A stretch of 29,115 bases of DNA from a virus (taxonomy: Duplodnaviria > Heunggongvirae > Uroviricota > Caudoviricetes). The stretch lies in the IMG/VR virus record IMGVR_UViG_2547132281_000011. The stretch is one strand, 5' to 3'. Below the pieces are notes generated by a model that was not told where the DNA came from, searched no databases, and was given only the letters and a program-made list of their open reading frames with translations. The position numbers were made by a program, and so were the translations under genes. Positions 2,946 through 26,894 of the stretch are shown here, one piece after another (positions within the stretch are counted from its first letter, which is position 1; each line of letters starts with the position of its first letter).

Positions 2946-2947
2946 AA

Positions 2948-10144: not shown

Positions 10145-10270
10145 TTTGCTGTCCCGCGTTATGTTGTCGGAGACAGTTTGTGAGAAATGCAGGCCCGGCG
10201 ATTTTAATCTGCTTTAGAAAACATCAGGGGAGAAGGACAGGGAAAGCAATGCGGTGAACCGGAAGCGGTT

Positions 10271-10312: not shown

Positions 10313-10358
10313 CCTCATTCGCTGGCAATGATAAATCACCCGCCTGAAGAGAGAAAAC

Positions 10359-10817: not shown

Positions 10818-10819
10818 TG

Positions 10820-14710: not shown

Positions 14711-15252
14711 GTGGCAATCCCCAGAATCTCGCGACGAAGCGCCTGTACTGCGTCGCTTGACAGTCCGCCCTTACGGGCAATTTTCTCTGCGTTGCTGGCT
14801 GCCTGCTGCGCTCTGGCCCGCACTTCAGACTGGAACTTTTTGAGGTTGACGGACGCGCGTGACAGCGTAGCCACATTCTTCGCCACCTTCGACAGCAGGG
14901 CCACGCGTTCTTTAGGATCGACTTCGCCTTCTTCCGCCTCCTGCAACTGGACAATACTCTCGAACAGCTCGGTCTGAATAAGGGCTATCACAGCCTCCGA
15001 ACGCGCATCCAGATCGTCTGCTGCGCCTTCGGTCAGCATGCGGGCCGCTTCTGTCGCCGCACGGATAGCACCATAGCGGCGCTCAATCTTCTGTCCATAG
15101 CGATGGATAGCGGATTTGCTGATGACGTACCCCCGCTCACGCAGCAGGGACTCCAGCTCGTTATACCCGCTGAAGCCGGATTCAGTCAGCGCCCGTTCAA
15201 GCCAGCGGCGCACGTCTTCCGGCAGCTTTTCTATTGTGCTGCGTCTGGCCAT
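14707..15252 (-). CDS. Terminase small subunit-like protein (Mu gp27 position)
   Basis: 181 aa, helical and charged; translationally coupled to the large subunit gene. Confidence 0.55.
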   Translation of the reverse strand: MARRSTIEKLPEDVRRWLERALTESGFSGYNELESLLRERGYVISKSAIHRYGQKIERRYGAIRAATEAARMLTEGAADDLDARSEAVIALIQTELFESIVQLQEAEEGEVDPKERVALLSKVAKNVATLSRASVNLKKFQSEVRARAQQAASNAEKIARKGGLSSDAVQALRREILGIAT

Positions 15253-15563
15253 TATTCACTCCAGTACTTTTCCGGGCGGGCAATACCCGGACCACATTCC
15301 ACGGTGTATTCCACCAGGTCTACGCCGAGGCGGGTCAGGTCAGCAAACCAGTCACCAGAAGGTTTTTTCTCCAGCTCAACCATTTTACGGTCAGCCAGAT
15401 AATCCAGTTCGCGGCGCAGCTCCAGCGGTGTGGTGTCCGGGTAGATGGCACGGGACACATCCAGCAGCAGCGTCTCGCTGGCGGTGTAAGGGCGGGTCTT
15501 GTTCAGGGCAACCAGCAGACTCCAGCGCAGGGATTCGCGGCGTACTCGGGTAATATCGACCAT
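15252..15563 (-). CDS. Hypothetical protein (Mu gp26 position)
   Basis: 103 aa, by synteny. Confidence 0.45.
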   Translation of the reverse strand: MVDITRVRRESLRWSLLVALNKTRPYTASETLLLDVSRAIYPDTTPLELRRELDYLADRKMVELEKKPSGDWFADLTRLGVDLVEYTVECGPGIARPEKYWSE

Positions 15564-15889
15564 TATTGACCTCCGGTATTGCGGTACTGCTGTACCACTT
15601 CCAGTTTGTTATAAAGCGCGTCCAGTTTGGCCTCAATGACTGTCTGGCCACGGATATAATCCTCTCGACGGACATAATTCAGCGGTAAATCCGCTTTAAA
15701 TCGCATAAATTCTTTTTCCAGCTCGCCCCAGTTGGAGGCGGATTGTTGCAGGGCCTGTTCAAGGGAGGCGAATCGTGCCGCCTGGCGTTCTTCTGTTTTA
15801 CTGAACAACCATTTGGCGAGCCCTCCCACAAACCCCATGAAGGTGAGCAGAAAACTCACCACCGTCCAGAATTCAACCTGCAGTGTCAT
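15563..15889 (-). CDS. Small membrane protein (Mu gp25 position)
   Basis: 108 aa with N-terminal hydrophobic helix (FWTVVSFLLTFMGFVGGLAKWLF). Confidence 0.5.
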   Translation of the reverse strand: MTLQVEFWTVVSFLLTFMGFVGGLAKWLFSKTEERQAARFASLEQALQQSASNWGELEKEFMRFKADLPLNYVRREDYIRGQTVIEAKLDALYNKLEVVQQYRNTGGQ

Positions 15890-16536
15890 TTCTGTAATCC
15901 TTCCCGTTCATCCAGCAGCGCGTTTATCTGGTTCCGCCAGCGACGACATTGCCATGCGTTGTCGATGATGTTGGCGAGAACGTCACGCTGGGAGACACCC
16001 GAATCGCGTAACCGGGTGTCAGTGGTTTCAGGTTGCCCGGTCGCTGTGCCAGAGCGGGTGCCAGTGGCGGCAACTGAGTCTGAATGACCGGTGTCGACGG
16101 ATGCGTTGTCATATCCGAGTGCGGCGTTGTACTGGCGCACGAAACCGCGAGTAAACACGCACTCAATGGGATGGCTCTTACCTTTTTCATCAATCCAGCG
16201 CTGTGTGACATCGTTAATTTGCCCCTGTAGTTGTTTATTCCGGCTCTCCAGTTGAGCAATCTGCTCAAGATAACCGGCTTCAGCCCGCTGCCCGGCGGCC
16301 ACCTGCTCCTGATACCGTCTGGCCCAGGCCCGCAGCGCAGCATTCTCAAGCGTTGCCTGCGCCGTTTTGTACGCGTCAAATGCTGACTGCAACTGACTGA
16401 GCGCGGTATTACCGTCACGCTTTGCAGAGTCATGACCACTTCTGTATCCCATGGCATACAGGCCGATCAGAAAGGCATTGATAAGAATGGCCAGCAGAAT
16501 GCCGCGCCACGGCAGCTTTTTAACCAGATGCCACAC
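15886..16536 (-). CDS. Inner-membrane spanin (Rz-like)
   Basis: N-terminal TM (WRGILLAILINAFLIGLYAMG) then coiled-coil periplasmic domain; probable GTG start at 16536 behind GGGAGG (ORF track start 16638 overlaps the endolysin gene). Confidence 0.6.
   Translation of the reverse strand: MWHLVKKLPWRGILLAILINAFLIGLYAMGYRSGHDSAKRDGNTALSQLQSAFDAYKTAQATLENAALRAWARRYQEQVAAGQRAEAGYLEQIAQLESRNKQLQGQINDVTQRWIDEKGKSHPIECVFTRGFVRQYNAALGYDNASVDTGHSDSVAATGTRSGTATGQPETTDTRLRDSGVSQRDVLANIIDNAWQCRRWRNQINALLDEREGLQK
15924..16190 (-). CDS. Outer-membrane lipoprotein spanin (Rz1-like) embedded in the +1 frame of Rz
   Basis: MKKVRAIPLSAC... with lipobox LSAC and proline-rich mature part; entirely inside the Rz-like gene. 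Confidence 0.6.
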   Translation of the reverse strand: MKKVRAIPLSACLLAVSCASTTPHSDMTTHPSTPVIQTQLPPLAPALAQRPGNLKPLTPGYAIRVSPSVTFSPTSSTTHGNVVAGGTR

Positions 16537-17254
16537 AACTGCTGCCTCCCCATGTGAGATATCGCGGTGCCAGTTCGCGCAGGATGCGCTGCGGATAATG
16601 GCGGTTCTCCCGCCAGCTGGCCGCATTGCGTCCGGCATTCACCGTGGCGACATGTCCGAACCAGCGGGTGCTGTCCAGACCTTTCTGTGATGCAAGCCGC
16701 CTGTCCCGTTGTACCCAGCCCAGACCACCGTTATAGCCTGACAGTGTCATGGCCATACGCTCGCAGTCGTTGGCGGCGCTGACGCGCTGCCACAGCCAGC
16801 GGTCATAGCTGACCAGCGCCCGGATGGCCCATGCCGGATTAAACGGCTCACGGCTGTTAAGTCCCGGCATCAGCTGACTTATCCAGTCGGCAGTGGCAGG
16901 CATGAACTGCGCCAGTCCCTGAGCACCAGCCGGCGAGACCGCATCAGGTCGCCAGCCGCTTTCCTGATGCAGTTGCGCGGCGAAATCTGCCACCGGCGCA
17001 GACAGTCCCCATTCAAGCCGGGCATTACGGATCACATCATCGCGATACTGCAGCGCAGCCTGCGGAGGCTGCGCTGCGCGGGCCTGACTGAAGAAGCCAC
17101 CACACCAGAGCAGCCAGACAATCACCAGGTTGCCAGCAAGCTGCCACCAGAAGCTGTATTTATCGTTACGTGGTTCGCCGTGTCTGATGGCGGTTACGCC
17201 CAGACCAAAGGCGAACAGAATAATGAGGGTGATTTGAGGCCAGTTCATGGTCAC
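16520..17254 (-). CDS. Membrane-anchored (SAR-type) endolysin with lytic transglycosylase domain
   Basis: N-terminal TM (WPQITLIILFAFGLGVTAI) then SLT motif AAQLHQESGWRPDAVSPAGAQGLAQFMPATA. Confidence 0.8.
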   Translation of the reverse strand: MTMNWPQITLIILFAFGLGVTAIRHGEPRNDKYSFWWQLAGNLVIVWLLWCGGFFSQARAAQPPQAALQYRDDVIRNARLEWGLSAPVADFAAQLHQESGWRPDAVSPAGAQGLAQFMPATADWISQLMPGLNSREPFNPAWAIRALVSYDRWLWQRVSAANDCERMAMTLSGYNGGLGWVQRDRRLASQKGLDSTRWFGHVATVNAGRNAASWRENRHYPQRILRELAPRYLTWGGSSCVASG

Positions 17255-17601
17255 AGTCCTGTTGCCACAGCCAGACAGACCGCTGCAACAATCAGTGCAC
17301 GGCGGATTAACGCAGCAGAAAATACAAGGTGAAGGCCGGTCTGCACAGGGAAACGCCCTTCAGCCATCAGCCTGTCTTCATGTTTCAGGTACTGACCGGG
17401 ACGGGCTTTGGGGAAGAGCGAACGGTCAAGCCAGTAACCCAGCACTGCTGCCAGCGTGATGAGTGCCAGCTTGTAGATCACAACAGGCAACTGCTGTGGC
17501 GAGACCAGAGCGATGGTGCCCAGCAACAGCACTGAGGTCAGCAGCCAGCCGCTGAGGCGAGGTTTTTTAACAGGGGGAATGAATTTTTTCAGGCTTTTCA
17601 T
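17251..17601 (-). CDS. Holin-like small membrane protein, first gene of the lysis/late operon
   Basis: 116 aa from ATG 17601 behind AAGGAG; multiple hydrophobic helices; ATGA overlap with endolysin gene. Confidence 0.5.
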   Translation of the reverse strand: MKSLKKFIPPVKKPRLSGWLLTSVLLLGTIALVSPQQLPVVIYKLALITLAAVLGYWLDRSLFPKARPGQYLKHEDRLMAEGRFPVQTGLHLVFSAALIRRALIVAAVCLAVATGL

Positions 17602-17687
17602 GTGTGTCTCCTTGTTTGGTGGAGACAGCATCACAAATGTGGCGGGATACGGATTTTAAAGCGCGTTATAAGTGTTCGCAGAGGGAA

Positions 17688-17704
17688 GCGACCAGAATGG
17701 TCGC
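17688..17704. promoter_or_regulatory. Perfect 7-3-7 dyad GCGACCAgaaTGGTCGC upstream of the lysis operon (candidate activator/operator site)
   Basis: Exact inverted repeat about 85 bp upstream of the holin-like start, in the divergent intergenic region. Confidence 0.3.
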
Positions 17705-17731
17705 ACACAAAACATAGGGGAGGCAAGCACA

Positions 17732-18055
17732 ATGACTGAACCGAAACAGTCTGGTATTAAAAAAGGGTTCCTCTTTGGGAGCAGAATCGGAGAGCAGAAT
17801 AAAACTTACACGCTAAGCTTGGATGCATGTTGTCCAACCGAAGCGATTATAGAGCTGAAAAACGTTCTGGTTGCACTTGAAGAGAGAAGAAGTCATTTCG
17901 CCAGCGGAGAAAACAATGTCATGCTAATTGGCGATGTGGCGGCGACATCACGATATAAAACCGCACCTAATCCTGCGATTCAGTTATCCTTCGACCAACG
18001 AATACTGGAAGCGGAATCAGCAGTTCCCAGAACGGTTCGTCCTCACCAGTCTTAA
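17732..18055 (+). CDS. Hypothetical protein
   Basis: 107 aa from ATG 17732 behind GGGGAGG; 3' end overlaps the convergent ORF 17967-18542 by 89 nt, so one of the two may be spurious. Confidence 0.35.
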   Translation: MTEPKQSGIKKGFLFGSRIGEQNKTYTLSLDACCPTEAIIELKNVLVALEERRSHFASGENNVMLIGDVAATSRYKTAPNPAIQLSFDQRILEAESAVPRTVRPHQS

Positions 18056-18542
18056 CTGGGGCTGCTTCACCCGACCAGTAAAGCCAAGCACGGTGATACA
18101 GTTCCAGCACCGGGCAATCACTGTTCAATAACCTCATATCTCCGCGATGCACCTGCTCATTTGTGATGACTTCATATATCGGTGCCGTTCTTATTTCGTC
18201 TTCGCCTCTCTCATCAGCCAGTAATTCCCTGAACTTCCTGACTTCACTCAGATGCTGACAGGCAAACAGTGACTGATAGCGGGAAGGTTTATCAGGAAAA
18301 TGGCTACGGCGAACTAACTCAAACACCAGACCGACCAGCAGACTTCTGCTGATTCCACTGTCATCTTCCATTTTAGGGCCGGGGTTATAGAGATAGTTAT
18401 ACCCGTGACTCGAAAGGCCATTGGGATACATCTGATGAAGAAAAGCGGCCAGTTCTGGCATTTCAGGCTCGTATTTTCCGGTAATTACATGACAAGGCGA
18501 AGGCAGACGACTAGCGGAATCAAGTGTGTAATACGTTCCCAT
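17967..18542 (-). CDS. Hypothetical protein, 191 aa
   Basis: Long ORF with AAGGA upstream; no motif I can recognise. Confidence 0.45.
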   Translation of the reverse strand: MGTYYTLDSASRLPSPCHVITGKYEPEMPELAAFLHQMYPNGLSSHGYNYLYNPGPKMEDDSGISRSLLVGLVFELVRRSHFPDKPSRYQSLFACQHLSEVRKFRELLADERGEDEIRTAPIYEVITNEQVHRGDMRLLNSDCPVLELYHRAWLYWSGEAAPVKTGEDEPFWELLIPLPVFVGRRITESQD

Positions 18543-18657
18543 TCAGAAAACAATCCTTATCGAACAAACACTGCACGTAGGTAATACATCCAGTAAATCG
18601 CGTTAATAGAAATCATGTATCTCAAAACTTCACTCTGAACTCTGACAGTGAAAGAAC

Positions 18658-18689
18658 GACCAGCCCGGTACCCGAACTCCGGGCTGGTC
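18658..18689 (-). terminator. Strong hairpin, putative terminator of the repressor-linked operon
   Basis: Perfect 11-bp stem GACCAGCCCGG / CCGGGCTGGTC with 10-nt loop; on the minus strand followed by GTTCTTTCACTG. Confidence 0.4.
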
Positions 18690-18951
18690 ATCGCCCCACA
18701 GGAATGCACTGTGAGCCGACCGAGGTTCAGTCAGTCTCGCGAGACCAGACTAGCCTGCCATATTTTTTATAATTATAAAAGGGTTACAGATTATGAAAAT
18801 GCAGACATTCCCCATCGCTCCATGGATTGGTTGTAAACGCCGCCATGCCAGACATATTCTGGCCGATGTTTCCTAGCACGCACGAATATGAGGCAACTGA
18901 CGAGAATAAATGATGCGTCAGAATGAACCGTCGACACCGTGCTTTCAGGTT

Positions 18952-19563
18952 TCAAAAATCTGGAGAAGGTATATCTATCTGACCGACGTTTCGTAACCAC
19001 ATCTCTTGCTTTGTTTCTTTATTGGTTCGGGCGATATCATTAGCATTGTATCTGCATGTTTTAACCGCAACCTCACGAACTCGTGCTATAGGAGTATTTG
19101 TGTAGAATTTAAGATCTTCCTCTACCGCTCGTATGGCGATAAGCCCTCCACTCTGAAAACCGCTGGTTACTTTTAAAAGATCAACTCCTTGGTTATAAAC
19201 GGCATTACATACGTTAGGGAACTCATCTTCTACAGTTTTGGGGATCATCAGCATATCAGGAAGACCCTGTAACACGTTATCTTCCTTTGGCCTCCATGCC
19301 CTTCCCAAAAAAGCTGTTATAGGTTGTGGTGTAGAAAGAAATGCCAATTCTATATAAAACAAACCACTGTAGTGATCGCGTAACGAATAGACTAGTAAAT
19401 GATCTTTTCCAGTTTTACTTGCATTGCTAAGTTTTATATCAAATGGTTTTTTCTGGTACTTAAGCAATCCATCAACTCCCGCATAATAATGCTTTGAAAC
19501 AGCAACAGAAAGTTGATGTACTTGGTTCGGATAATCTGTTCTATATCGTTTAATTAGCCCCAT
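18952..19563 (-). CDS. Hypothetical 203-aa protein, second gene of repressor-linked accessory operon
   Basis: ATG 19563 with GAGG 6-7 nt upstream, 20 nt after the upstream gene; AT-rich; no recognisable motif. Confidence 0.6.
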   Translation of the reverse strand: MGLIKRYRTDYPNQVHQLSVAVSKHYYAGVDGLLKYQKKPFDIKLSNASKTGKDHLLVYSLRDHYSGLFYIELAFLSTPQPITAFLGRAWRPKEDNVLQGLPDMLMIPKTVEDEFPNVCNAVYNQGVDLLKVTSGFQSGGLIAIRAVEEDLKFYTNTPIARVREVAVKTCRYNANDIARTNKETKQEMWLRNVGQIDIPSPDF

Positions 19564-19583
19564 AATAGCCTCGCAGTTATTTT

Positions 19584-20570
19584 CTATTTCAAAATATAAC
19601 GATATTTACTATCTGGAGTGTTTTGTTGGTCAAGTAATAGAGCTCTACATGGGGCGGTCAAAACACGGGCATAACGACCATCGGGGTTTATGTTGATGTA
19701 ACAAGTTTTCCCTTTAACACCATAAGATTCAGGTATTATTGCCTGTGTAGACACCGTGAATTTAAGGGTATGCCAGCCCGATTTTTGCTTGTAGCTTGAA
19801 ACCGAATGGAAATCATCTGAGTACTTATTTAACCCTGGAAACATGCTGCGTAATGCTGGGATGGAATCTTCTATTATTTTGTCGTTGGTTTTAATGTTAA
19901 AAACGCTGGTTTCAGTAGATGCTACTGCTTTAGCATTTCCCCATTTACCAGCGAACACAATCATTCCCACGAAAAATATTGCGACAAGAACTAACGCTCC
20001 CCCCAACACTACTACATGAGGCTTCCGGCTTCTGGTTGGTACAGTCGCGACTGATTTTGCCCCGCTGTCCGATGGAGGTGATAGAGTTTTACTCTCATCA
20101 CGAATATTCAGCAGATCATCAAAATAACCAAACACAGCCTGCAACTGCTCTTTGTCCAGGCCTTTAAGATGGGTTGTACCGAAATGCTTCAGACAGTATC
20201 TGTCACGGTCAAGACGATACCTAGGGTCAGTAAGCACCATTATTTTGCTGACCAGAAGATTACAGTCCTTCATATTCTGGATCTGTTGTGCATATCTCTG
20301 GAGGATCTCAACCGCACCATGATAATCAGCCGCAGTCATTTCATTAACTGTTTTGGTATTAAGTTTCGTGTGGATCGTCATCCATAGTTCGCGCTTACTT
20401 TCCCCCAGATCAACCAATTCATCCATCAATCTGTGTAAATCGCGTTTTTGCAGCAACGAAATTGGTTGCTGGGCAGAGGGAAGTATGTCAGCAGAATAGT
20501 TATGAATGGTAACATCACCGCTGACAACGTTACCCACATCTCCGTTAACTGTTTGCTTCTCTTTACTCAT
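19584..20570 (-). CDS. Single-pass membrane protein (cytoplasmic ~190-aa N-domain, one TM, ~115-aa C-domain), translationally coupled to repressor gene
   Basis: TM segment VVVLGGALVLVAIFFVGMIVFAG; start ATG overlaps repressor stop (ATGA at 20567-20570); N-terminus NGDVGNVVSGDVTIH echoes the repressor C-terminus. Confidence 0.65.
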   Translation of the reverse strand: MSKEKQTVNGDVGNVVSGDVTIHNYSADILPSAQQPISLLQKRDLHRLMDELVDLGESKRELWMTIHTKLNTKTVNEMTAADYHGAVEILQRYAQQIQNMKDCNLLVSKIMVLTDPRYRLDRDRYCLKHFGTTHLKGLDKEQLQAVFGYFDDLLNIRDESKTLSPPSDSGAKSVATVPTRSRKPHVVVLGGALVLVAIFFVGMIVFAGKWGNAKAVASTETSVFNIKTNDKIIEDSIPALRSMFPGLNKYSDDFHSVSSYKQKSGWHTLKFTVSTQAIIPESYGVKGKTCYININPDGRYARVLTAPCRALLLDQQNTPDSKYRYILK

Positions 20571-21028
20571 TTTCTCTTTGTATTTTTGTTCATTATTCCA
20601 CCTGTTCCTATGGTTACGTTACCTTTGATAACATTCCCCAGAACATCTCCATGAATAACCTGTTCCGCCCGTTCTCTGGAGGAGCCAGTCGTCAATGCCG
20701 ACAAAACTGAACCTTTGACTTGTAACGGTGCTTGCCGGTAGTGCTGAAGTAACTCCATTTCATCACGTGATAAAGTTATACCTGATGATTCCCCAGTAAG
20801 AATGAACTGTACGTTGGCCCCAATTCTTGCAAAGGCTGCAAGTAACTCACCTCCGGGAACTGCAACCCCTCGTTCATATTTCCCCCACATTTCTCTTGAA
20901 ACGCCACAAAGGGCTGCTACTTCAGCCTGCTTGAGTGATAACCGCGAACGCTCAGCTTTGAACCGCGACGCGCAAAGAGAATCAAAATTCACATAAACCT
21001 CATTGACAATGAGAACAATAGTTCTCAT
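20567..21028 (-). CDS. Prophage repressor, XRE/Cro-CI-type HTH (functional analogue of Mu c)
   Basis: HTH motif LSLKQAEVAALCGVSREMWGKYERG; divergent from the early operon; start codon lies within the early-promoter operator region, leader apparently very short. Confidence 0.75.
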   Translation of the reverse strand: MRTIVLIVNEVYVNFDSLCASRFKAERSRLSLKQAEVAALCGVSREMWGKYERGVAVPGGELLAAFARIGANVQFILTGESSGITLSRDEMELLQHYRQAPLQVKGSVLSALTTGSSRERAEQVIHGDVLGNVIKGNVTIGTGGIMNKNTKRK

Positions 21029-21031
21029 AAT
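21004..21031 (+). promoter_or_regulatory. Early promoter (Pe-like), sigma70-type
   Basis: TTGACA (21004-21009), 16-nt spacer, CATAAT (21026-21031), about 45 nt upstream of the ner-like ATG. Confidence 0.55.
21010..21027. promoter_or_regulatory. Operator: perfect 18-bp palindrome TGAGAACAATAGTTCTCA
   Basis: Exact 7-4-7 dyad filling the spacer of the early promoter and abutting the repressor start codon. Confidence 0.55.
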
Positions 21032-21078
21032 CTATCACATATAAAACAAACATCATTGCATCAACAAAGGAGACAACA

Positions 21079-21267
21079 ATGACTTCCGAACAAGTTAAAA
21101 CTCTCTTCCGTCAGCGTGGTATCACGTTTACCCGCTGGGCCGAAGAACACGGCTACAGCCGCAATGAGGTCTATCGTGTTCTCAATGGACAGACCAAAGC
21201 TCGTTACGGCAAAGCCCATGAAATTGCCGTAAAGCTGGGATTAAAACCCACGTCAAATGCGGCATAA
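21079..21267 (+). CDS. Small Ner/Cro-like DNA-binding protein, first gene of early operon
   Basis: 62 aa, AAGGAG RBS, HTH-like FTRWAEEHGYSRNEVYRVLNG; position as Mu ner. Confidence 0.55.
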   Translation: MTSEQVKTLFRQRGITFTRWAEEHGYSRNEVYRVLNGQTKARYGKAHEIAVKLGLKPTSNAA

Positions 21268-21319
21268 ATTTTCCATATATGCAACAGGTTATCACATATT
21301 GCAAAAATGGAAATGTGAC

Positions 21320-21628
21320 ATGAGTAAAGTAAATATCTCCAGTTCCGGGACCCGCATCCTACGTGTACTCAAAGCTCTACGCGGTCACTCTCTGAACGGT
21401 GTTTCTAACGGTGAACTGGCATCAGCCCTAGATGAGTCCCCGGCGAACATCAATCGAGCACTCAATACCCTTATCGAAGAGGGACTAGCCCTGAAACTGG
21501 AAAACGGGCGTTTCGCACCAGGCATCCAGTTGCTGCAGATCGCCATGGCCCACAGTAACGAGATGGCACGTGCACAGGATCGCATTAACGAAATCAACCA
21601 ACGTGTTATTTCAGGTAGTCGTTTGTAA
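21320..21628 (+). CDS. Winged-helix-like DNA-binding protein
   Basis: 102 aa from ATG 21320; TRILRVLKALRGHSLNGVSNGELASALDESPANINRALNTLIEEGL resembles wHTH regulators; start uncertain. Confidence 0.45.
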   Translation: MSKVNISSSGTRILRVLKALRGHSLNGVSNGELASALDESPANINRALNTLIEEGLALKLENGRFAPGIQLLQIAMAHSNEMARAQDRINEINQRVISGSRL

Positions 21629-21638
21629 GGAGTAATCA

Positions 21639-22550
21639 ATGGGACGCACCAAATCACCGGTTAGCACTGAACTGAACGTCGAGGTACCGCTGTCGGATGA
21701 TCTCAATGTCAGTCTAAACGCCATGACACAGCATCGCATGGAAATCATGCAACAGTTCGGCGATGGTCTGCCCTATGAGCGCGATCGTGTTGTCCATGAG
21801 GCACGCTTTTATATGGCACAGAGCGCTGAGGCCATGCTGGAGGCAGGTAAGCGGCTGATAATCCTTAAGGAAAATGAACCACACGGGGAGTTTATAAAGA
21901 TTCTTGAAAGTGAGTTGGGGCTGGCATACCGGACATCTGTGAGAATGATGCAAGCATCGACAAAATACTTATCCCCGGCGCTGAAACCAAATGTGCCAAC
22001 GTTGGCACATTTGGGAAAAGCCAAACTTTTCGAATTAATGACAGAAGACGACGAAGAGCTTGCCGAACTGGCCGACGGCGGCACAGTTGCCGGCATGACG
22101 CTTGACGATGTTGATCGCATGTCAGTACGTGAATTGCGTCAGGCCCTGCGTGAAGCGCGCGAAACCAACGCAGCACAACAGCGTGTTCTCGCCGATAAAA
22201 ATGAAAAAATAGACTCACTCTCCACCAGACTGGAGAAGAAATCCCGTATTCAGCCACCTGAGCCTGATGAAGAGGTGAAGAAACTGCGGGCGGAAGTGAC
22301 CGCGTTAGCGGTTGAGGCGGAATCTGCCATCGCCGTTCGACTGTCCAGCGCTTTTGAGACACTGTGCGCATATTGTGCTGAAAACATGATTGATACCCCC
22401 AGAGACTTCATGGCAGGCCTGGTCTGTCAACTGGAAAGCACAGCGCGTAGCCTGCGCTCCACATTTGACCTGCCGGACGAGCCAACAGGCGATGTCGCGC
22501 CTTCATGGCTGACTGAGCCGACGCCACAGATTAACGGGCTGGAGGCATAA
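21639..22550 (+). CDS. Hypothetical early protein, 303 aa (possibly DUF3102-like), with coiled-coil C-terminal half
   Basis: Strong AAGGAG RBS; charged helical region (RELRQALREARETNAAQQRVLADKNEKIDSL); not present at this position in Mu itself. Confidence 0.55.
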   Translation: MGRTKSPVSTELNVEVPLSDDLNVSLNAMTQHRMEIMQQFGDGLPYERDRVVHEARFYMAQSAEAMLEAGKRLIILKENEPHGEFIKILESELGLAYRTSVRMMQASTKYLSPALKPNVPTLAHLGKAKLFELMTEDDEELAELADGGTVAGMTLDDVDRMSVRELRQALREARETNAAQQRVLADKNEKIDSLSTRLEKKSRIQPPEPDEEVKKLRAEVTALAVEAESAIAVRLSSAFETLCAYCAENMIDTPRDFMAGLVCQLESTARSLRSTFDLPDEPTGDVAPSWLTEPTPQINGLEA

Positions 22551-22553
22551 CCA

Positions 22554-24323
22554 ATGAATGCTGCCCTGACTGAACGACTGGTTTATGTCGCCCGCGCGGC
22601 ACGTGACGCGGGGCATGGTAAACGCGGTGCAATATACGACGCGGCCTGTGCTGAACTTGGCATGTCCCGCGCCACTCTGCTGCGCAGGCTGAAGGAGGTA
22701 TCTGTGACTGATAAACGCAAAAAACGCGCCGATGCCGGGCGCAGCGCCCTGACCCGCGACGAAGCCGCGCTGATATCTGCCACACTGCGTGAGGCCACCC
22801 GCAAGAACGGTAAGCGTCTCTATTCCATCGCAGATGCAGTGGAAACCCTGCGGGCTAACGGCTTTATCTCCGCAGGCAGAACAGATGAAACCACCGGTGA
22901 GTTTTTCCCGTTGTCCGAAGATGCCATCAGTCGTGCCTTGCGTAACTATGGCCTGCACCCGGAACAACTGGATGCCCCTGCGCCGCATACCGAAGTGGCC
23001 AGTCTGCATCCCAATCACGTCTGGCAGATTGATGCCTCGCTCTGCACGCTTTACTACCTGAGCAATGGACACAAAGGGCTGCAGGTGATGGACAGCGCGA
23101 AGTTCTACAAGAACAAACCCGCTAACCTTGCCCGTATCGCCAGTGACCGCGTGTGGAGTTACGAGATTACCGACCATGCCAGCGGCTGGATTTACGTTGA
23201 GTATGTGACGGGTGCGGAATCCGGTGAGAACCTGTGTTCTGTGCTTATCAACGCCATGCAGGAGCGTGGCGGCGCAGACGTGCTGCACGGCGTGCCGAAA
23301 ATACTCTATCTCGACCCCGGCTCGGCAAACACCGCGGGTATGACGAAAAACATGTGCCGCTCACTGGGCATCGACCTGATAGCGCACAAGCCGCATAACG
23401 CCCGCGCCACCGGACAGGTGGAAAAGGCGCGTGACATTATCGAACGCAAGCTGGAGCCGGGTCTGAAGTTCCGGCCGGTTCACAGTCTGGAAGAACTCAA
23501 CGCGCTGGCCGCGAAATGGCGCAGCCACTTTAACGCCACGGCTGTTCACAGCCGCCACGGTAAAACCCGCACGGATATCTGGCTGAAGATTACTGCTGAG
23601 CAGCTGAAAAAAGCGCCTTCCGTTGAGGTATGTCGTGAACTGGCTGTGGCGGCACCAGAACTCCGCAAAGTCACGCCAAAACTTCGTGTCTCGTTCCGGG
23701 GCACTGAATTTGACGTATCAACGGTACCGGGCGTACTGGTTGGTGAAAAACTGATGATTACCCGTAACCCATGGCGCAGCGATGTGGCACAGGTGGTTCT
23801 GACCGGTGAGGACGGCCACGAGACGTTCTTCCTGGTCGAAGAGGTCAGAAAGAACGAGTTTGGCTTTGCTGAAGGCGCGGCGGTATTTGGCGAAAGTTAC
23901 AAAGCCCTGCCGGAAACCCCGGCACAGATGGCGGCAAAAGAAACCGAAGCGCTGGTTACCGGTACAGACAACGCCGCAGATGCAGCCGCCGCACGCAAGG
24001 CGAAGGCGCTGCCGTTCGGCGGGCGGCTTGACCCGTATAAACATATCGACGACACCACACTTCCGGCCTATATGCCGAAGCGTGGTCAGGCCTCTGACGT
24101 ACGCGGGCCGCGCACTGAACAACGTCCCATGACTCATGTGGAGGCCGCGAAAGCCCTGCGCGATAAGTTCAGCGCCGACGGCCTTACCTGGACGCCGGAA
24201 CATTACCGCCAGTTAACGGCACAGTACCCGGACGGCGTACCGGAAGCCGCACTGGATGAAGTCATGGCCACGCTGACCACACCGGCCCGCAGCAGTGTTA
24301 TCAGCATTGTTAACGGCAACTGA
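22554..24323 (+). CDS. DDE transposase, Mu-type (MuA-like)
   Basis: 589 aa; rve-type core with candidate DDE residues (HVWQIDAS ... LYLDPGSANT ... downstream Glu); GGAGG RBS; followed by overlapping AAA+ ATPase gene. Confidence 0.85.
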   Translation: MNAALTERLVYVARAARDAGHGKRGAIYDAACAELGMSRATLLRRLKEVSVTDKRKKRADAGRSALTRDEAALISATLREATRKNGKRLYSIADAVETLRANGFISAGRTDETTGEFFPLSEDAISRALRNYGLHPEQLDAPAPHTEVASLHPNHVWQIDASLCTLYYLSNGHKGLQVMDSAKFYKNKPANLARIASDRVWSYEITDHASGWIYVEYVTGAESGENLCSVLINAMQERGGADVLHGVPKILYLDPGSANTAGMTKNMCRSLGIDLIAHKPHNARATGQVEKARDIIERKLEPGLKFRPVHSLEELNALAAKWRSHFNATAVHSRHGKTRTDIWLKITAEQLKKAPSVEVCRELAVAAPELRKVTPKLRVSFRGTEFDVSTVPGVLVGEKLMITRNPWRSDVAQVVLTGEDGHETFFLVEEVRKNEFGFAEGAAVFGESYKALPETPAQMAAKETEALVTGTDNAADAAAARKAKALPFGGRLDPYKHIDDTTLPAYMPKRGQASDVRGPRTEQRPMTHVEAAKALRDKFSADGLTWTPEHYRQLTAQYPDGVPEAALDEVMATLTTPARSSVISIVNGN

Positions 24324-24333
24324 GGAGGGAAAC

Positions 24334-25500
24334 ATGCTGGTACTGAAGCAGCAACTGAAAGAGGCCCGTATTCCACAGGCGGTGGTGGCGAGAGCTGTCG
24401 ATGTTTCTGAGGCCACGCTGGCCCAGATTGTGAATCATAACGCGTGGCCCCGCACCAGCCCCGGAGAAGTGCGCCGGCGTCTTGCGTCCTGGCTGGAAAG
24501 TCAGGGGATTGATACAACGAAGAGTTTTGATGCTGTACAGGGCGCGGCCACGCCCCGTACAGCGGGTACCACAGATAAAACGAGCCTCAGTGAGGAAGAG
24601 AATATGTTACTCAAAAAACAGGTGTTATTTCCAGCAACCAAAAAAGCGTTTGGTCTTTTCCGTGACCCGTTCGCCGACGAAGCCATGCAGGGTTCTGATG
24701 ATGTGTTCACCACCCCGGACATTCGCTACGTGCGTGAGGCGCTGTACCAGACAGCCCGTCATGGTGGGTTTATGGCCGTCATCGGTGAGTCCGGTGCGGG
24801 TAAATCCACGCTGCGCCGCGACCTGACTGAACGTATCAACCGCGAGAATGCGCCGGTAATTGTTATCGAGCCATACATCATCGCTATGGAAGACAACGAT
24901 GTGAAAGGGAAAACCCTGAAGGCAGCAGCTATTGCCGAAGCCATTATCAGTACCATCGCACCACTGGAAAGCATCAGACGCAGTCAGGACGCCCGTTTTC
25001 GCCAGTTGCATCGCGTCCTGAAAGACAGCAGCCAGGCGGGGTTCAGCCACGTTCTGGTGATTGAGGAGGCCCACAGTCTGCCCATTCCGACACTGAAACA
25101 CCTCAAACGCTTTTTTGAGCTGGAGTCCGGTTTCAAAAAACTGCTGTCCATCGTGCTGATTGGCCAGCCGGAACTGGCGACAAAACTGTCTGAACGCAAT
25201 ATGGAAGTCCGTGAAGTCGTTCAGCGCTGTGAGGTGGTCGAACTTCTGCCTCTGGACAATAACCTTGAAGAATTTCTGACGTTCAAACTGCAACGGGCCG
25301 GTAAACAGCTGACGGACATTATGGACGCCGGTGCAGTGGATGCCATACGTGCCCGCCTGAGCAATCCGGGAAGTCACCGTAAAAATATGGTCAGCCTGCT
25401 GTATCCGCTGGCCGTCAGTAACCTGGTAATAGCCGCCATGAATCTGGCCGCTGAAATCGGGGTTCCACAGGTCAACGCTGACGTTGTCAAAGGGGTTTAA
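24334..25500 (+). CDS. Transposition AAA+ ATPase (MuB/TniB-like)
   Basis: Walker A GESGAGKST; start ATG 24334 behind GAGGAGGG, just after transposase stop (ORF-track start 24295 is an upstream extension). Confidence 0.85.
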   Translation: MLVLKQQLKEARIPQAVVARAVDVSEATLAQIVNHNAWPRTSPGEVRRRLASWLESQGIDTTKSFDAVQGAATPRTAGTTDKTSLSEEENMLLKKQVLFPATKKAFGLFRDPFADEAMQGSDDVFTTPDIRYVREALYQTARHGGFMAVIGESGAGKSTLRRDLTERINRENAPVIVIEPYIIAMEDNDVKGKTLKAAAIAEAIISTIAPLESIRRSQDARFRQLHRVLKDSSQAGFSHVLVIEEAHSLPIPTLKHLKRFFELESGFKKLLSIVLIGQPELATKLSERNMEVREVVQRCEVVELLPLDNNLEEFLTFKLQRAGKQLTDIMDAGAVDAIRARLSNPGSHRKNMVSLLYPLAVSNLVIAAMNLAAEIGVPQVNADVVKGV

Positions 25501-25502
25501 TA

Positions 25503-25766
25503 ATGAAATCCACCACAGGTATCAACCAGCAAATCAGCAAAGTGCAGTCAGCCATTATGGCGCTTAAGGCGACGAACACGGATGTACAAAGCATCACCAT
25601 CAGGGGTAACAAACCTGTCATCCGCGTTTCCCGGAGTGCGCATTGCATGCGCATGCTTGAGCAGGGAAAGGCCTGTTATACCGGACATGACCACAGGGGA
25701 TATTTCCGTCAGGGCGTTTTCGAACTGCACGGCTGTCGCGTCGTGTGGCCGGAATCTTTGTGGTAA
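25503..25766 (+). CDS. Hypothetical early protein (Kil position)
   Basis: 87 aa directly after the ATPase gene; function not recognisable. Confidence 0.45.
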   Translation: MKSTTGINQQISKVQSAIMALKATNTDVQSITIRGNKPVIRVSRSAHCMRMLEQGKACYTGHDHRGYFRQGVFELHGCRVVWPESLW

Positions 25767-25793
25767 TCAGCACAACTGGAGAAATCATAAGAT

Positions 25794-26324
25794 ATGGCAA
25801 AAAGTACAAAAGGGGCAAAACGTATCAAGTCCGCAGCGGCACTCTGGGTACCGGGGACACGCGAAGAGGTCATTGAGGGAATCAGACTGCTCGGTGACGC
25901 ACAACGTGAACTGGTCAGGGCTGAAACAGAAATGAATGACGCCATTGGCGATATCACCGCACGTTATGCCCCGCTCACCGAGAGCCTAAAAAAACGCATG
26001 GCCGAACTGCAGTCCGGTATTCAGACATGGTGTGAGGCACACCGTGATGAACTGACCGGCAACGGGAAGGTGAAGTTCGCTAACCTCACCACCGGCGAGG
26101 TGCAGTGGCGAAACCGTCCGCCATCAGTCAGTATCCGTGGAGCGGATAATGTTATTGAACTACTGAGACGTCTGGGGCTTGAGCGCTTTATTCGTGTAAA
26201 AGAGGAAATAAATAAAGATTCCATTCTGAATGAAAAAGAGGCCGTGAAAAATATTCCCGGTATTACCATAAAAAGTGATATTGAGGATTTTTCAATAATT
26301 CCTTTTGAGCAGGATGTGCAGTAA
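25794..26324 (+). CDS. gam: Gam-like DNA-end binding / host nuclease inhibitor protein
   Basis: 176 aa; MAKSTKGAKRIKSAAALWVP... and ...VQWRNRPPSVSIRG...IEDFSIIPFEQ closely resemble Mu Gam as recalled. Confidence 0.85.
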   Translation: MAKSTKGAKRIKSAAALWVPGTREEVIEGIRLLGDAQRELVRAETEMNDAIGDITARYAPLTESLKKRMAELQSGIQTWCEAHRDELTGNGKVKFANLTTGEVQWRNRPPSVSIRGADNVIELLRRLGLERFIRVKEEINKDSILNEKEAVKNIPGITIKSDIEDFSIIPFEQDVQ

Positions 26325-26421
26325 ACACACCACGTTAATTATTTAATAAAAACATTTTCTTTTTTATTCCGGCGTCAGCGCCGTGGGCTTCTGCACGCCG
26401 GAAACAGAGGAGAATTAAATT

Positions 26422-26616
26422 ATGATATTTAAATGTATTCAGTGCGAGAGGGATATAACAGCCCTGCGTTTTCACAGCGCCATCGCCGTGATGTCCGGTA
26501 AGTACCACGTACCTGCAGTACGTGTCACCCTGGTCTGTCCGTACTGCAGCCAGCATTTTTCGGCGGACGTGCCCGTCATGGAATTCTTCCGCCCTGACAG
26601 GGAGGACGCGCAATGA
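26422..26616 (+). CDS. Small zinc-ribbon protein
   Basis: 64 aa with CxxC ... CPYC pairs; GAGGAG RBS. Confidence 0.45.
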   Translation: MIFKCIQCERDITALRFHSAIAVMSGKYHVPAVRVTLVCPYCSQHFSADVPVMEFFRPDREDAQ

Positions 26617-26885: not shown

Positions 26886-26894
26886 GGGCGCGAC

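What the first reader, a model, noticed from the sequence alone, without database searches (positions are those of the whole stretch)
21004..21081. Near-consensus early promoter with a perfect 18-bp palindromic operator in its spacer; repressor start overlaps it
TTGACA-16 nt-CATAAT drives the ner-like gene. The spacer is filled by TGAGAACAATAGTTCTCA (perfect 7-4-7 dyad), an ideal site for a dimeric HTH repressor. The repressor ATG (minus strand, 21028) is immediately adjacent, so its mRNA must be nearly leaderless and its promoter must overlap the early-transcript leader, giving a compact face-to-face switch. Only one operator copy is evident, unlike the multi-site O1-O3 of Mu.
Basis: partly seen in the sequence, partly recalled or inferred. 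Interest (0 to 1): 0.4.

Follow-up and report, generated by a model that had tools for sequence, protein, structure and literature searches.

The report
Prophage early promoter with repressor operator

Summary
TTGACA (21003-21008), a 17-nt spacer (not 16) and CATAAT (21026-21031) form the best sigma-70 match in about 20 kb. The perfect dyad TGAGAAC-AATA-GTTCTCA (21010-21027) fills the spacer.

Comparison of about 115 related loci supports it as the operator of the divergently encoded repressor, whose HTH resembles those of P22 C2 and 434:
- Relatives have a dyad in the same spacer (43 of 63 promoters; 4.2 expected).
- Dyad type follows repressor type, not the conserved ner-like gene.
- Searching with the motif alone recovered 24 viral contigs that all encode the same repressor HTH, 8 of them without ner.

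- The repressor starts at GTG 20992 (141 aa) with Shine-Dalgarno GAGG at 20998-21001, not at ATG 21028. The dyad ATG is out of frame in the relatives checked, and one has a stop codon just upstream of its start. The mRNA is therefore not leaderless.
- A second, degenerate operator (AGAGAATCAAAATTCACA, 20976-20993) probably lies 34 bp upstream. Own-versus-other matching and codon fixation support it.

The repressor's promoter remains unlocated. This is a new member of a known kind, of modest interest. A conserved 28-bp perfect palindrome inside the DUF3102 gene, seen in passing, is odder.

The parts
21003..21008 (+). Pe -35 hexamer TTGACA
   Evidence: Promoter scan, 11 of 12 matches with a 17-nt spacer. 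The same position is occupied in 63 non-identical related promoters.
21026..21031 (+). Pe -10 hexamer CATAAT. This is also the right-hand boundary of the exchangeable immunity module.
   Evidence: Homology to heteroimmune phage PhiKM begins at 21027. Sequence to the right of the -10 is unrelated among contigs that share this operator.
21010..21027 (.). Operator O1: perfect dyad TGAGAAC-AATA-GTTCTCA (8-nt arms if extended to 21009-21028). It fills the spacer and overlaps the -10 by 2 bp.
   Evidence: The half-sites GAGAAC/GTTCTC are conserved and the central 4 nt vary in Serratia, Pseudomonas and viral relatives that encode the same HTH.
20976..20993 (.). Probable second operator O2, AGAGAATCAAAATTCACA. 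It matches O1 at 10 of 14 outer positions, lies 34 bp from O1 centre to centre, and overlaps the repressor start codon.
   Evidence: Own-versus-other O1 matching across 41 promoter types, Wilcoxon p=1.4e-6, with distances of 29-35 bp. Codons 5-6 are fixed as TCT-CTT in 12 of 13 and 10 of 11 homologues, p about 1e-6. Binding itself is inferred.
20567..20992 (-). Repressor gene, 141 aa from GTG 20992. N-terminal Cro/CI-type HTH, C-terminal domain of unknown fold.
   Evidence: Pfam HTH_31 at 30.5 bits and HTH_3 at 23 bits. P22 C2 N-terminal domain at E=1e-4 and 434 repressor. Start codon established by homologue comparison.
20998..21001 (-). Repressor Shine-Dalgarno GAGG, 5 nt before GTG 20992 and 1 nt from the Pe -35 hexamer
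   Evidence: Read from the sequence. The equivalent AAGGGG or AAGGTG is present in all same-type relatives, and B3 has the same geometry.
21026..21028 (-). It is not the conserved start.
   Evidence: Out of frame in L058, L023, L025, L040 and L053, and followed by stop codons in four of them. No Shine-Dalgarno precedes it.
21038..21078 (+). Predicted Pe leader (transcription start inferred at about 21037-21039) with Shine-Dalgarno AAGGAG at 21067-21072
   Evidence: Inferred from the -10 position. Leader length and sequence are conserved across immunity types.
21047..21063 (+). Conserved leader box CAAACATCATTGCATCA, independent of immunity type. It is a candidate site for the conserved ner-like protein; its function is not shown.
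   Evidence: Alignment of 38 distinct leaders.
21079..21267 (+). First early gene: ner-like small HTH protein of the BcepMu gp16 family
   Evidence: TIGR04111 at 93.9 bits against a cutoff of 34. phrog_925. Pfam HTH_35 (Mu Ner family) at only 15.4 bits against a cutoff of 25.
19584..20570 (-). 328-aa accessory gene. Its ATG overlaps the repressor stop (ATGA), so it is probably co-transcribed and translationally coupled with the repressor.
   Evidence: phrog_10002. In Fc02 an accessory gene likewise follows the repressor gene on the lysogenic transcript (PMC9936078).

Best explanation
The region is the immunity switch of a BcepMu/B3-like transposable prophage of E. coli.

1. Pe (TTGACA, 17 nt, CATAAT; 21003-21031) is a strong sigma-70 promoter. 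It starts the early operon: the ner-like gp16-family gene, an IclR-like HTH gene, DUF3102, the DDE transposase, an ExeA/MuB-like ATPase, and on to Gam and Mor.
2. The divergent gene encodes a 141-aa repressor that starts at GTG 20992. Its N-terminal domain is a Cro/CI-type HTH related to those of P22 C2 and 434.
3. A repressor dimer binds the 18-bp dyad O1 (21010-21027). O1 occupies the whole spacer and touches both hexamers, so RNA polymerase cannot bind and the transposition and lytic genes stay off.
4. A weaker copy, O2 (20976-20993), lies 34 bp away on roughly the same face of the helix and over the repressor's own start codon. It probably binds a second dimer cooperatively, which would tighten repression and may feed back on repressor expression.
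5. The repressor's ribosome-binding site abuts the -35 hexamer, so its mRNA must start to the right of 21001 and run leftwards across O1 and Pe. Repressor and early transcription are therefore mutually interfering.
6. Repressor, O2, O1 and the promoter form a portable cassette whose right edge is the -10 hexamer.

Shown here: the sequence anatomy, the family-wide conservation of the architecture, the covariation of operator with repressor, and the start codon. Inferred: physical binding, cooperativity, the transcription start sites, and the promoter of the repressor.
For: Promoter and dyad.

Identity of the element:
- 100% DNA identity to prophages of E. coli B7A and others.
- Related to Bcepmuvirus PhiKM and to B3.

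Architecture in relatives:
- A dyad sits in the spacer in 43 of 63 non-identical promoters, against 4.2 expected from shuffles.
- B3 itself has TTGACA-GGTGCAATATTTGGCACC-ACTAT, with a GTG repressor start 11 nt from the -35.

Specificity:
- The loci whose repressors score highest against the window's (99-129 bits) are exactly the GAGAAC-dyad loci. All other types score 83 bits or less.
- Half-site identity is 4.62 of 7 within repressor clusters and 2.29 of 7 between them. None of 5000 permutations reached this difference.
- PhiKM and L004 have ner proteins 85-87% identical to the window's but a different dyad and a different repressor. Pseudomonas loci have ner proteins only about 70% identical but the same dyad and the same HTH.
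- GAGAAC-type repressors share the recognition helix CGVSRE(M/I)WG(K/R)YERG even where their C-terminal domains differ.
- Reverse test: the pattern GAGAACNNNNGTTCTCATAAT hit 34 IMG/VR contigs. All 24 with a -35 at the right offset and enough flank encode the repressor HTH (51-99% identity) at the same position. The 9 without a -35 encode neither the repressor nor ner. Eight true hits lack ner, the IclR-like gene, DUF3102 and the transposase.

Fold relatives: P22 C2 at E=1e-4 and 434 repressor. From established knowledge, both bind 14-18-bp dyads with non-contacted centres.

Start codon.

O2.

Related experiment: in the B3-like phage Fc02, inactivating the repressor fires pE into ner and the early genes. 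The repressor mRNA in lysogens comes from a distal promoter, and a proximal promoter overlapping pE becomes active only after induction (PMC9936078).
Against: - No binding, footprint or transcript mapping exists for this phage or any same-type relative, so everything about binding is comparative inference.
- Loci are phylogenetically related, so the permutation and codon p-values overstate independence.
- O2 lies in coding sequence (codons 1-6) and shifts with the start codon (33 versus 34 bp). Coding or translation-initiation constraints could contribute to its conservation. In L040 and a few other immunity types no clear O2 is seen.
- No consensus-like promoter for the repressor was found. 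There is no minus-strand hit of at least 9 of 12 between 21000 and 24800, and no conserved -35 opposite the complement of Pe's -10.
- The palindrome would also form a -13.9 kcal/mol hairpin in a leftward transcript, so an added RNA-level role cannot be excluded.
- No Peptidase_S24 domain was found in the repressor, so the induction route is unknown.
Confidence: 0.82

Rival explanations
1. The repressor is translated from ATG 21028 on a nearly leaderless mRNA, a single operator controls the switch, and the repressor promoter lies in the early leader.
For: The ATG at 21028 is in frame with the HTH ORF in E. coli, and PGAP annotates that start (153 aa). The repressor promoter must indeed lie to the right of the operator.
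Against: - In five same-type genome loci the dyad ATG is out of frame, and in four it runs into a stop within 13 codons.
- Serratia L058 has a stop one codon before its ATG, and its protein begins MNF.
- L086 and L096 have an ATG exactly where the window has GTG, encoding MNFDS.
- A Shine-Dalgarno 5-6 nt upstream of that codon is conserved in every locus. None precedes 21028.
- No -10 hexamer is placed to start transcription at 21028.
- In Fc02 the repressor mRNA has a long leader (PMC9936078).
- There is evidence for O2.
Confidence: 0.05
2. The palindrome acts mainly as an RNA hairpin in the 5' leader of the repressor mRNA, affecting stability or translation, and not as a protein-binding site.
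For: The leftward transcript must cross it. It folds at -13.9 kcal/mol, z=-3.4, and lies 8 nt before the Shine-Dalgarno. Palindromes recur at this place in relatives.
Against: - The half-site sequence, not just the pairing, is conserved from E. coli to Pseudomonas, while the centre varies.
- Dyad type tracks the HTH recognition helix.
- Many relatives have zero-loop palindromes whose centres are also symmetric, which a hairpin does not need.
- O2 copies share half-sites but are not self-complementary.
- The dyad is locked to the -35 and -10 hexamers of Pe, not to the Shine-Dalgarno.
Confidence: 0.06
3. The dyad is the site of an early-operon regulator, either the ner-like gp16 protein or the IclR-like HTH protein, which would autoregulate Pe. 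It is not the site of the divergent repressor.
For: Both are small HTH proteins made from Pe. Cro and Ner proteins do bind at early promoters.
Against: - PhiKM shares 87% (ner) and 93% (IclR-like) protein identity with the window but has a completely different dyad.
- Eight viral contigs carry the same dyad and the same repressor with no ner-like, IclR-like, DUF3102 or transposase homologue.
- What tracks the ner-like gene is the leader box at 21047-21063, not the dyad.
Confidence: 0.03
4. A chance palindrome beside a chance promoter-like match, with no regulatory meaning.
For: Perfect dyads with arms of at least 7 nt occur 20 times in the window against about 11 expected, and promoter-like hits are no more frequent than in shuffles.
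Against: This is the best promoter match in 20 kb, placed exactly between divergent regulator genes. A spacer dyad is present in 43 of 63 related promoters against 4.2 expected. The reverse search recovers the repressor.
Confidence: 0.01

Closest known systems
P22 C2 / 434 cI / lambda CI-Cro type immunity switches (Cro/CI-type HTH repressor with dyad operators over the lytic promoter)
   Same: The N-terminal HTH domain is detectably related to P22 C2 and 434 repressor. The operator is an 18-bp dyad with conserved arms and a free 4-bp centre, and it overlaps the lytic promoter. The repressor and the first lytic regulator are divergent. A second operator nearby is suited to pairwise cooperativity. 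Immunity modules are exchanged between phages.
   Different: Two sites, not three, and they flank the -35 hexamer instead of lying between two back-to-back promoters. O1 sits entirely within the spacer. The repressor's Shine-Dalgarno and start lie between O2 and the -35, so there is no room for a PRM-type promoter activated from OR2. There is no Peptidase_S24 autocleavage domain. The phage is transposable, not lambdoid.
Phage Mu c (Rep) / Ner / Pe-PcM with operators O1-O3
   Same: Same genetic logic and gene order: a divergent repressor, then Pe, a small Ner-position regulator, and the transposase A and B genes (Mu layout from PMC3820752).
   Different: Mu Rep is homologous to the N-terminus of the MuA transposase and also binds the Mu ends (PMC3820752), whereas this repressor is a Cro/CI-type HTH. 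Mu has three composite operators with an IHF site that double as the transposition enhancer, whereas here there is one perfect and one degenerate simple dyad. The ner-like protein matches the Mu Ner family only below threshold.
B3-like Pseudomonas phages (B3, Fc02): repc / pE / pC2 / pC1
   Same: Homologous early region: the ner-like gene, the IclR-like gene, DUF3102 and the transposase. Identical geometry, with TTGACA, a dyad in a 17-nt spacer, and a GTG repressor start 11 nt from the -35. Fc02 RNA-seq shows pE firing when the repressor is inactivated (PMC9936078).
   Different: The operator half-sites and the recognition helix differ: B3 has the GTGCA/GCAC type. B3 and Fc02 have two extra genes after ner, and these host the distal repressor promoter pC1. 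The E. coli phage lacks them, so its maintenance promoter is unknown. No operator is described in the Fc02 paper. The B3 genome paper could not be read.
P22 immI Arc operator in Pant (from established knowledge)
   Same: A dyad operator placed between the -35 and -10 hexamers of a strong promoter represses by occluding RNA polymerase.
   Different: Arc is a ribbon-helix-helix tetramer, and immI is a secondary immunity region. There is no sequence relationship.

Membership tests
Cro/CI-type (XRE, HTH_3/HTH_31) phage repressor with dyad operator | N-terminal Cro/CI-type helix-turn-helix domain | tested here: met
   Pfam HTH_31 at 30.5 bits (cutoff 27) and HTH_3 at 23.0 bits (cutoff 23). phmmer hits to P22 C2 at E=1e-4 and 434 repressor at E=0.02.
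Cro/CI-type (XRE, HTH_3/HTH_31) phage repressor with dyad operator | Dyad-symmetric operator of 14-20 bp overlapping the lytic promoter and specific to the repressor type | tested here: met
   Perfect 7-4-7 dyad in the Pe spacer. Covariation with repressor type. Reverse search.
Cro/CI-type (XRE, HTH_3/HTH_31) phage repressor with dyad operator | Several adjacent operators bound cooperatively | tested here: inconclusive
   A degenerate O2 lies 34 bp upstream, supported by family-wide statistics and codon fixation. It is in coding sequence, and cooperativity was not tested.
Cro/CI-type (XRE, HTH_3/HTH_31) phage repressor with dyad operator | C-terminal Peptidase_S24 domain for RecA-stimulated autocleavage (lambda, P22 and 434 subgroup) | tested here: not met
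   No S24 hit at E<=0.01. The C-terminal 70 aa have no family assignment and differ among same-operator relatives.
Cro/CI-type (XRE, HTH_3/HTH_31) phage repressor with dyad operator | Physical binding of the repressor dimer to the operator and repression of the promoter | not testable with these tools
   Needs EMSA or footprinting and reporter assays.
Mu-type switch (Rep / Ner / O1-O3) | Repressor homologous to the MuA N-terminal DNA-binding domain | tested here: not met
   Only HTH_31 and HTH_3 were found. The closest solved structures are P22 C2 and 434, not Mu proteins. The Mu property is taken from PMC3820752.
Mu-type switch (Rep / Ner / O1-O3) | First early gene is a member of the Ner/Nlp family (Pfam HTH_35) | tested here: not met
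   HTH_35 at 15.4 bits, E=0.019, against a cutoff of 25. No Mu Ner structure was hit at E<=10. A weak resemblance spans most of the profile, so a distant relationship is not excluded.
Mu-type switch (Rep / Ner / O1-O3) | Three composite operators with an IHF site that double as the transposition enhancer | tested here: not met
   Only O1 and a degenerate O2 were found. There are no further copies or enriched half-sites in the window. The internal site at 23226-23241 is coding conservation shared with heteroimmune PhiKM.
BcepMu/B3-like transposable phages (Bcepmuvirus / Beetrevirus) | BcepMu gp16-family protein as the first early gene | tested here: met
   TIGR04111 at 93.9 bits against a cutoff of 34.
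BcepMu/B3-like transposable phages (Bcepmuvirus / Beetrevirus) | Early operon with IclR-like HTH, DUF3102, DDE (rve) transposase and an ExeA/MuB-like ATPase, with homology to classified members | tested here: met
   Pfam and RefSeq annotation. 78.9% DNA identity to Bcepmuvirus PhiKM over 1.4 kb, and a transposase 98.8% identical. B3 match.

The most novel reading that the evidence does not exclude
The switch may not work like lambda. The repressor's ribosome-binding site is wedged between O2 and the -35 hexamer, and the exchangeable cassette ends inside the -10 hexamer. The cassette therefore carries no complete repressor promoter of its own. Repressor supply in the lysogen would depend on leftward transcription that starts in or beyond the early leader and reads through the occupied operator, as the distal pC1 transcript does in Fc02. 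Any proximal promoter would share Pe's -10 on the opposite strand and be shut by the same O1. The decision would then rest on one operator gating two overlapping promoters, plus transcriptional interference with antisense RNA across ner. In that case the portable unit of phage immunity is 'repressor, two operators and half a promoter'.
Probability: 0.25. Interest if true: 0.5.

Novelty: new member of a known kind. Interest (0 to 1): 0.3.

Why it matters
- It gives a concrete, testable operator (GAGAAC-N4-GTTCTC) and a corrected repressor start for a prophage found, at least in part, in 634 of 5426 complete E. coli genomes, including ETEC strains such as B7A.
- No operator for the BcepMu/B3-like transposable phages turned up in the literature I could search, so this may be the first proposed for the group.
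- The comparison yields a catalogue of repressor and operator pairs at a fixed promoter geometry. That is useful for predicting heteroimmunity among these prophages and as orthogonal repressor/promoter parts.
- It flags a likely 12-codon over-extension in the RefSeq protein WP_001259267.1.
- Conceptually it is an ordinary phage immunity switch.

Tried and rejected
- Extra operators elsewhere. Searches for the full dyad and for half-sites found no enrichment. The 1-mismatch dyad inside the transposase gene (23226-23241) is also present in heteroimmune PhiKM and encodes G-E-N-L-C-S, so it was rejected as an operator.
- A 92%-identical E. coli variant (SCU-101) is identical across the immunity region, so it gave no polymorphism information.
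- Repressor promoter. There is no minus-strand sigma-70 match of at least 9 of 12 between 21000 and 24800. The complement of Pe's -10 gives a -10-like hexamer, but no -35 is conserved at 16-18 nt from it. An extended -10, TGaTAGATT (21037 to 21029), is seen in enterobacterial loci by eye but not in Pseudomonas, so I did not rely on it.
- Rfam gave only a sub-threshold chance hit, mir-450 at 25 bits against a cutoff of 60, on the ner/IclR intergenic inverted repeat.
- Literature. I found no paper on the BcepMu or E. coli Bcepmuvirus operator. The B3 genome paper (PMC516594) is not held.
- My first start-codon script assumed a fixed 11-nt offset and was one base off for the relatives. It was corrected.
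- DUF3102 side path. The single-sequence AlphaFold model was unusable at pLDDT 46. All listed homologues are at least 89% identical, too shallow for an alignment. Profile searches of the PDB and Pfam gave only coiled-coil noise.
Full report
WHAT IS THERE

The window lies wholly inside a prophage. It is 100% identical to prophages in E. coli B7A and about 25 other complete genomes, and partial matches occur in 634 of 5426 genomes. The gene content marks it as a BcepMu/B3-like transposable phage. Tail, head and lysis genes lie on one side. On the other side lies an early operon: a BcepMu gp16-family small HTH protein in the 'ner' position, an IclR-like HTH protein, DUF3102, an rve-type DDE transposase, an ExeA/MuB-like ATPase, Gam and Mor. 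The closest isolated phages are Bcepmuvirus PhiKM, KP12 and Phi06_2974 B. Pseudomonas phage B3 is a more distant relative.

CHECK OF THE OBSERVATION

- The promoter is real and slightly mis-measured. TTGACA is at 21003-21008, the spacer is 17 nt (not 16), and CATAAT is at 21026-21031. It matches 11 of 12 consensus positions.
- It is the only promoter-like hit in 20400-21700 and the best in 9200-29115.
- The dyad TGAGAAC-AATA-GTTCTCA is perfect at 21010-21027, with 8-nt arms if extended to 21009-21028.
- A perfect dyad with arms of at least 7 nt is not unusual in 29 kb: 20 were found against 11.2 in shuffles. What makes this one significant is where it sits and what relatives show.

COMPARATIVE EVIDENCE THAT THE DYAD IS THE REPRESSOR'S OPERATOR

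I used the conserved ner-like protein as an anchor and collected 80 loci from Gamma- and Betaproteobacteria.

- Nearly all have a near-consensus promoter 75-105 nt upstream of the ner start, with a dyad in its spacer.
- Of 63 non-identical promoters, 43 have a perfect spacer dyad with arms of at least 5 nt, against 4.2 after shuffling the spacers. 27 have arms of at least 7 nt, against 0.3.
- The dyads fall into types: GAGAAC-N4-GTTCTC, TGCTCA-N6-TGAGCA, TCCCA-N6-TGGGA, GGTAxC…GxTACC, GTGCCA-N4-TGGCAC and others.
- The type follows the divergently encoded repressor. The loci whose repressors score highest against the window's (99-129 bits) are exactly the GAGAAC loci, and every other type scores 83 bits or less.
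- Half-site identity is 4.62 of 7 within repressor clusters and 2.29 of 7 between them. None of 5000 label permutations reached this difference.

There is a clean double dissociation. PhiKM shares 87% (ner), 93% (IclR-like) and 99% (transposase) protein identity with the window. Its DNA homology nevertheless stops at window position 21027, inside the -10 hexamer. To the left it has a different, unannotated HTH repressor and a different perfect 18-bp palindrome in the same spacer: TTGATA-TGCTCATAATTATGAGCA-ATAAT. Conversely, Pseudomonas loci whose ner protein is only about 70% identical have the GAGAAC dyad and the same repressor HTH, with the recognition helix CGVSRE(M/I)WG(K/R)YERG invariant. 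Within the GAGAAC group the central 4 bp vary freely (AATA, TATA, TAGA, CAAA, TTAA, TTTG…). The C-terminal domains fall into two unrelated types. Specificity therefore maps to the HTH domain and the arms.

A reverse test gave the same answer. The pattern GAGAACNNNNGTTCTCATAAT alone hit 34 IMG/VR contigs.
- 25 have a TTGACA-like hexamer at the right offset. All 24 of these with enough flank encode a homologue of the repressor HTH (51-99% identity) at the same position.
- The 9 without a -35 encode neither the repressor nor ner, and are the expected chance hits.
- Eight of the true hits have no ner-like, IclR-like, DUF3102 or transposase homologue, and carry different first genes. One of these is a true Mu-Ner-type protein ending in LWPSRY.

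So the dyad belongs to the repressor and not to any early protein. The cassette's right edge is the -10 hexamer.

The repressor's nearest solved relatives are the N-terminal domains of P22 C2 (E=1e-4) and 434 repressor. From established knowledge, both bind as dimers to 14-18-bp dyads with non-contacted centres, which is the anatomy seen here.

THE REPRESSOR START

That ATG is the complement of the CAT in CATAAT and the right operator arm. Several lines place the real start at GTG 20992 instead.

- In Serratia L058, Pseudomonas L023, L025, L040 and L053, and about 15 further viral contigs, the repressor begins at ATG, GTG or TTG 10-12 nt left of the -35. Each start is preceded at 5-6 nt by AAGGGG, AAGGTG or GAGG, and the proteins begin M-(N/S/T/D)-F-x-S-L.
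- In the five genome loci the dyad ATG is out of frame, and in four it meets a stop within 13 codons.
- L058 has a stop one codon upstream of its ATG.
- L086 and L096 have an ATG exactly where the window has GTG, and encode MNFDSQCA.
- B3's annotated repressor also starts at a GTG 11 nt from the -35.

The window's repressor therefore starts at GTG 20992 (141 aa) with Shine-Dalgarno GAGG at 20998-21001. The 12 extra codons (MRTIVLIVNEVY) are promoter and operator DNA that happens to be in frame in E. coli because of a 1-nt spacing difference. The mRNA is not leaderless.

Because the Shine-Dalgarno abuts the -35, the repressor transcript must begin to the right of 21001 and cross O1.

A SECOND OPERATOR

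I scored each promoter's own O1 against its flanks, and compared that with O1s of other types scored against the same flanks.

- A degenerate copy appears upstream of the -35, mostly 29-35 bp from O1 centre to centre (Wilcoxon p=1.4e-6).
- Almost nothing appears downstream (p=0.03).
- In the window this copy is AGAGAATCAAAATTCACA at 20976-20993. It matches at 10 of 14 outer positions, lies 34 bp from O1, and overlaps the GTG start.
- Because it lies in codons 1-6, I tested codon choice. In GAGAAC-type homologues of 50-70% identity, Ser5 is TCT in 12 of 13 and Leu6 is CTT in 10 of 11. Elsewhere in the same genes these codons are used 25% and 18% of the time (p about 7e-7 and 4e-7).
- This points to DNA-level constraint on the AGAGAA half-site.

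Caveats: the sequences are related, the site shifts with the start codon, and constraints on translation initiation could contribute. I rate O2 as probable, at about 0.6.

HOW IT MOST LIKELY WORKS

- Shown: Pe is the strongest promoter match in the region. It faces the early operon, and O1 fills its spacer.
- Inferred: a repressor dimer on O1 excludes RNA polymerase. A second dimer on O2, about three helical turns away, binds cooperatively.
- Supported by a relative: in B3-like Fc02, heat-inactivating the repressor fires pE into ner and the transposition genes. In the lysogen the repressor mRNA comes from a distal promoter, pC1, that runs antisense through ner. A proximal pC2 overlapping pE becomes active only after induction (PMC9936078). 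That is what one expects if the same operator also covers the proximal promoter.
- Unresolved: the repressor promoter in the E. coli phage.
  - There is no minus-strand match of at least 9 of 12 between 21000 and 24800.
  - The complement of Pe's -10 gives GATTAT (21032 to 21027). That is a trivial consequence of the near-palindromic consensus, and no -35 is conserved opposite it.
  - The B3 genes that host pC1 are absent here.
- The leader between the -10 and the ner start is conserved in length and sequence in all immunity types: …CACAxA…CAAACATC(A/T)TTGCATCA…GGAG (box at 21047-21063). It tracks the conserved ner-like gene and is the obvious candidate for that protein's site. This is inference only.
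- The palindrome would also fold in a leftward transcript at -13.9 kcal/mol. I treat that as, at most, a secondary role.

COMPARISON WITH KNOWN SYSTEMS

By mechanism and by its HTH domain, this is a P22/434/lambda-type repressor and operator. By gene order it is a Mu-type early region.

It is not a member of the Mu Rep/Ner/O1-O3 system:
- The repressor is not MuA-like (Mu properties from PMC3820752).
- The ner-like protein reaches only 15.4 bits on HTH_35 against a cutoff of 25.
- There are no three composite operators.

It differs from lambda-type switches:
- It has two sites flanking the -35.
- There is no room for a PRM-type promoter.
- There is no S24 autocleavage domain.

It is a clear member of the BcepMu/B3-like group. 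The Fc02 paper predicts promoters for that group but describes no operator.

VERDICT

The leaderless start and the single operator are not supported. This is a new member of a known kind and of modest interest.

SEEN IN PASSING

The most unusual thing I saw is a 28-bp perfect palindrome at 21987-22014 inside the DUF3102 gene.
- At the homologous codon position, 29 of 37 mapped relatives have a perfect palindrome with arms of at least 7 nt (median arm 13).
- The outer bases are conserved, CAAA(A/T)…(A/T)TTTG. The inner core varies but always stays self-complementary, with a CG-containing symmetric centre. The encoded peptide changes with it.
- That pattern points to DNA-level dyad recognition, not to an RNA hairpin or to protein constraint.
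- I found no function for it.

Noticed in passing
window 21987-22014 (inside the DUF3102 gene, 21639-22550); homologous positions in L003, L084, L006, L008, L022, L028, L031, L046, L049, L051, L060, L061, L072, L076, L081 and others: A 28-bp perfect palindrome, CCAAATGTGCCAACGTTGGCACATTTGG, lies in coding sequence (peptide PNVPTLAHLG). At the same codon position, 29 of 37 mapped relatives have a perfect palindrome with arms of at least 7 nt (median arm 13). The outer bases CAAA(A/T)...(A/T)TTTG are conserved. The inner core varies but stays self-complementary (PhiKM ...ACGCTCAGCGCTGAGCGT..., B3 ...ACGGACAACGTTGTCCGT...), always with a symmetric centre containing CG, and the peptide changes with it. 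The same types recur in distant hosts. The local protein segment (about aa 95-160) follows the palindrome type. There are no other copies in the window, no literature on DUF3102, and no informative PDB or Pfam relatives. It looks like a self-encoded DNA site of unknown function.
   Followed up: partly
window 21047-21063; also 21033-21042 and 21290-21299; inverted repeat 21270-21289 / 21294-21313: The leader box CAAACATCATTGCATCA just before the ner Shine-Dalgarno is conserved in all immunity types and hosts. TATCACATAT occurs both at the predicted Pe start and again between ner and the IclR-like gene, and both copies are conserved in PhiKM. The ner/IclR spacer is an imperfect 20-nt inverted repeat that folds better on the minus strand (-16.6 kcal/mol, z=-2.95). 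These are candidate sites for the ner-like protein or an antisense-RNA element; neither idea was tested.
   Followed up: partly
window 19584-20570 (-) and 20567-20640 (-): The repressor stop overlaps the ATG of a 328-aa ORF (ATGA). That ORF has a C-terminal hydrophobic segment. Its N-terminal 130 aa weakly resemble the flagellar regulator Flk (44 bits, far below the cutoff), and it matches phrog_10002. Its N-terminus (NGDVGNVVSGDVTIHN) resembles the repressor's C-terminus (HGDVLGNVIKGNVTIG). It is probably a lysogen-expressed accessory or exclusion gene, like e4 of Fc02.
   Followed up: no
L003 (PhiKM, PQ738613) about 2590-2959, minus strand: The GenBank record of phage PhiKM leaves its divergent HTH repressor unannotated (MSKDIGERVISVRKKAGLNQREFAARLGISNG...). 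It annotates a 41-aa ORF on the opposite strand instead.
   Followed up: partly
window 23226-23241 (inside the transposase gene): GAGAAC-CTGT-GTTCTG differs from the operator consensus by one mismatch. The identical sequence is present in heteroimmune PhiKM, so it reflects coding conservation (G-E-N-L-C-S) and is not an operator.
   Followed up: yes
L040 and L053/L054, position 2738 (inside the repressor gene, 175 bp from O1): Pseudomonas GAGAAC-type loci carry a third operator-like dyad within the repressor coding sequence (GGAGAACAAAACTTCTCC, 1 mismatch), encoding PGGEVLFS. The window has no equivalent. It could be a distal site for looping or a coincidence.
   Followed up: no
L086, L089, L090, L092, L096, L099, L110, L113 (IMG/VR contigs): The same repressor/O2/O1/Pe cassette is joined to unrelated early genes in other phages. 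In L092 the early gene is a true Mu-Ner-type protein (...LWPSRY). This shows the cassette is exchanged as a unit that ends at the -10 hexamer.
   Followed up: partly
window 20999-21013; 17050-17077; 18765-18780: Other perfect dyads are present. CTCATTGACAATGAG is centred on the Pe -35 and overlaps the repressor Shine-Dalgarno; this one is specific to the window. A GC-rich hairpin with 12-nt arms lies at 17050-17077. TTTTATAATTATAAAA lies beside a 10-of-12 minus-strand promoter-like site at 18799-18772, in the 400-nt gap upstream of the 203-aa ORF.
   Followed up: no
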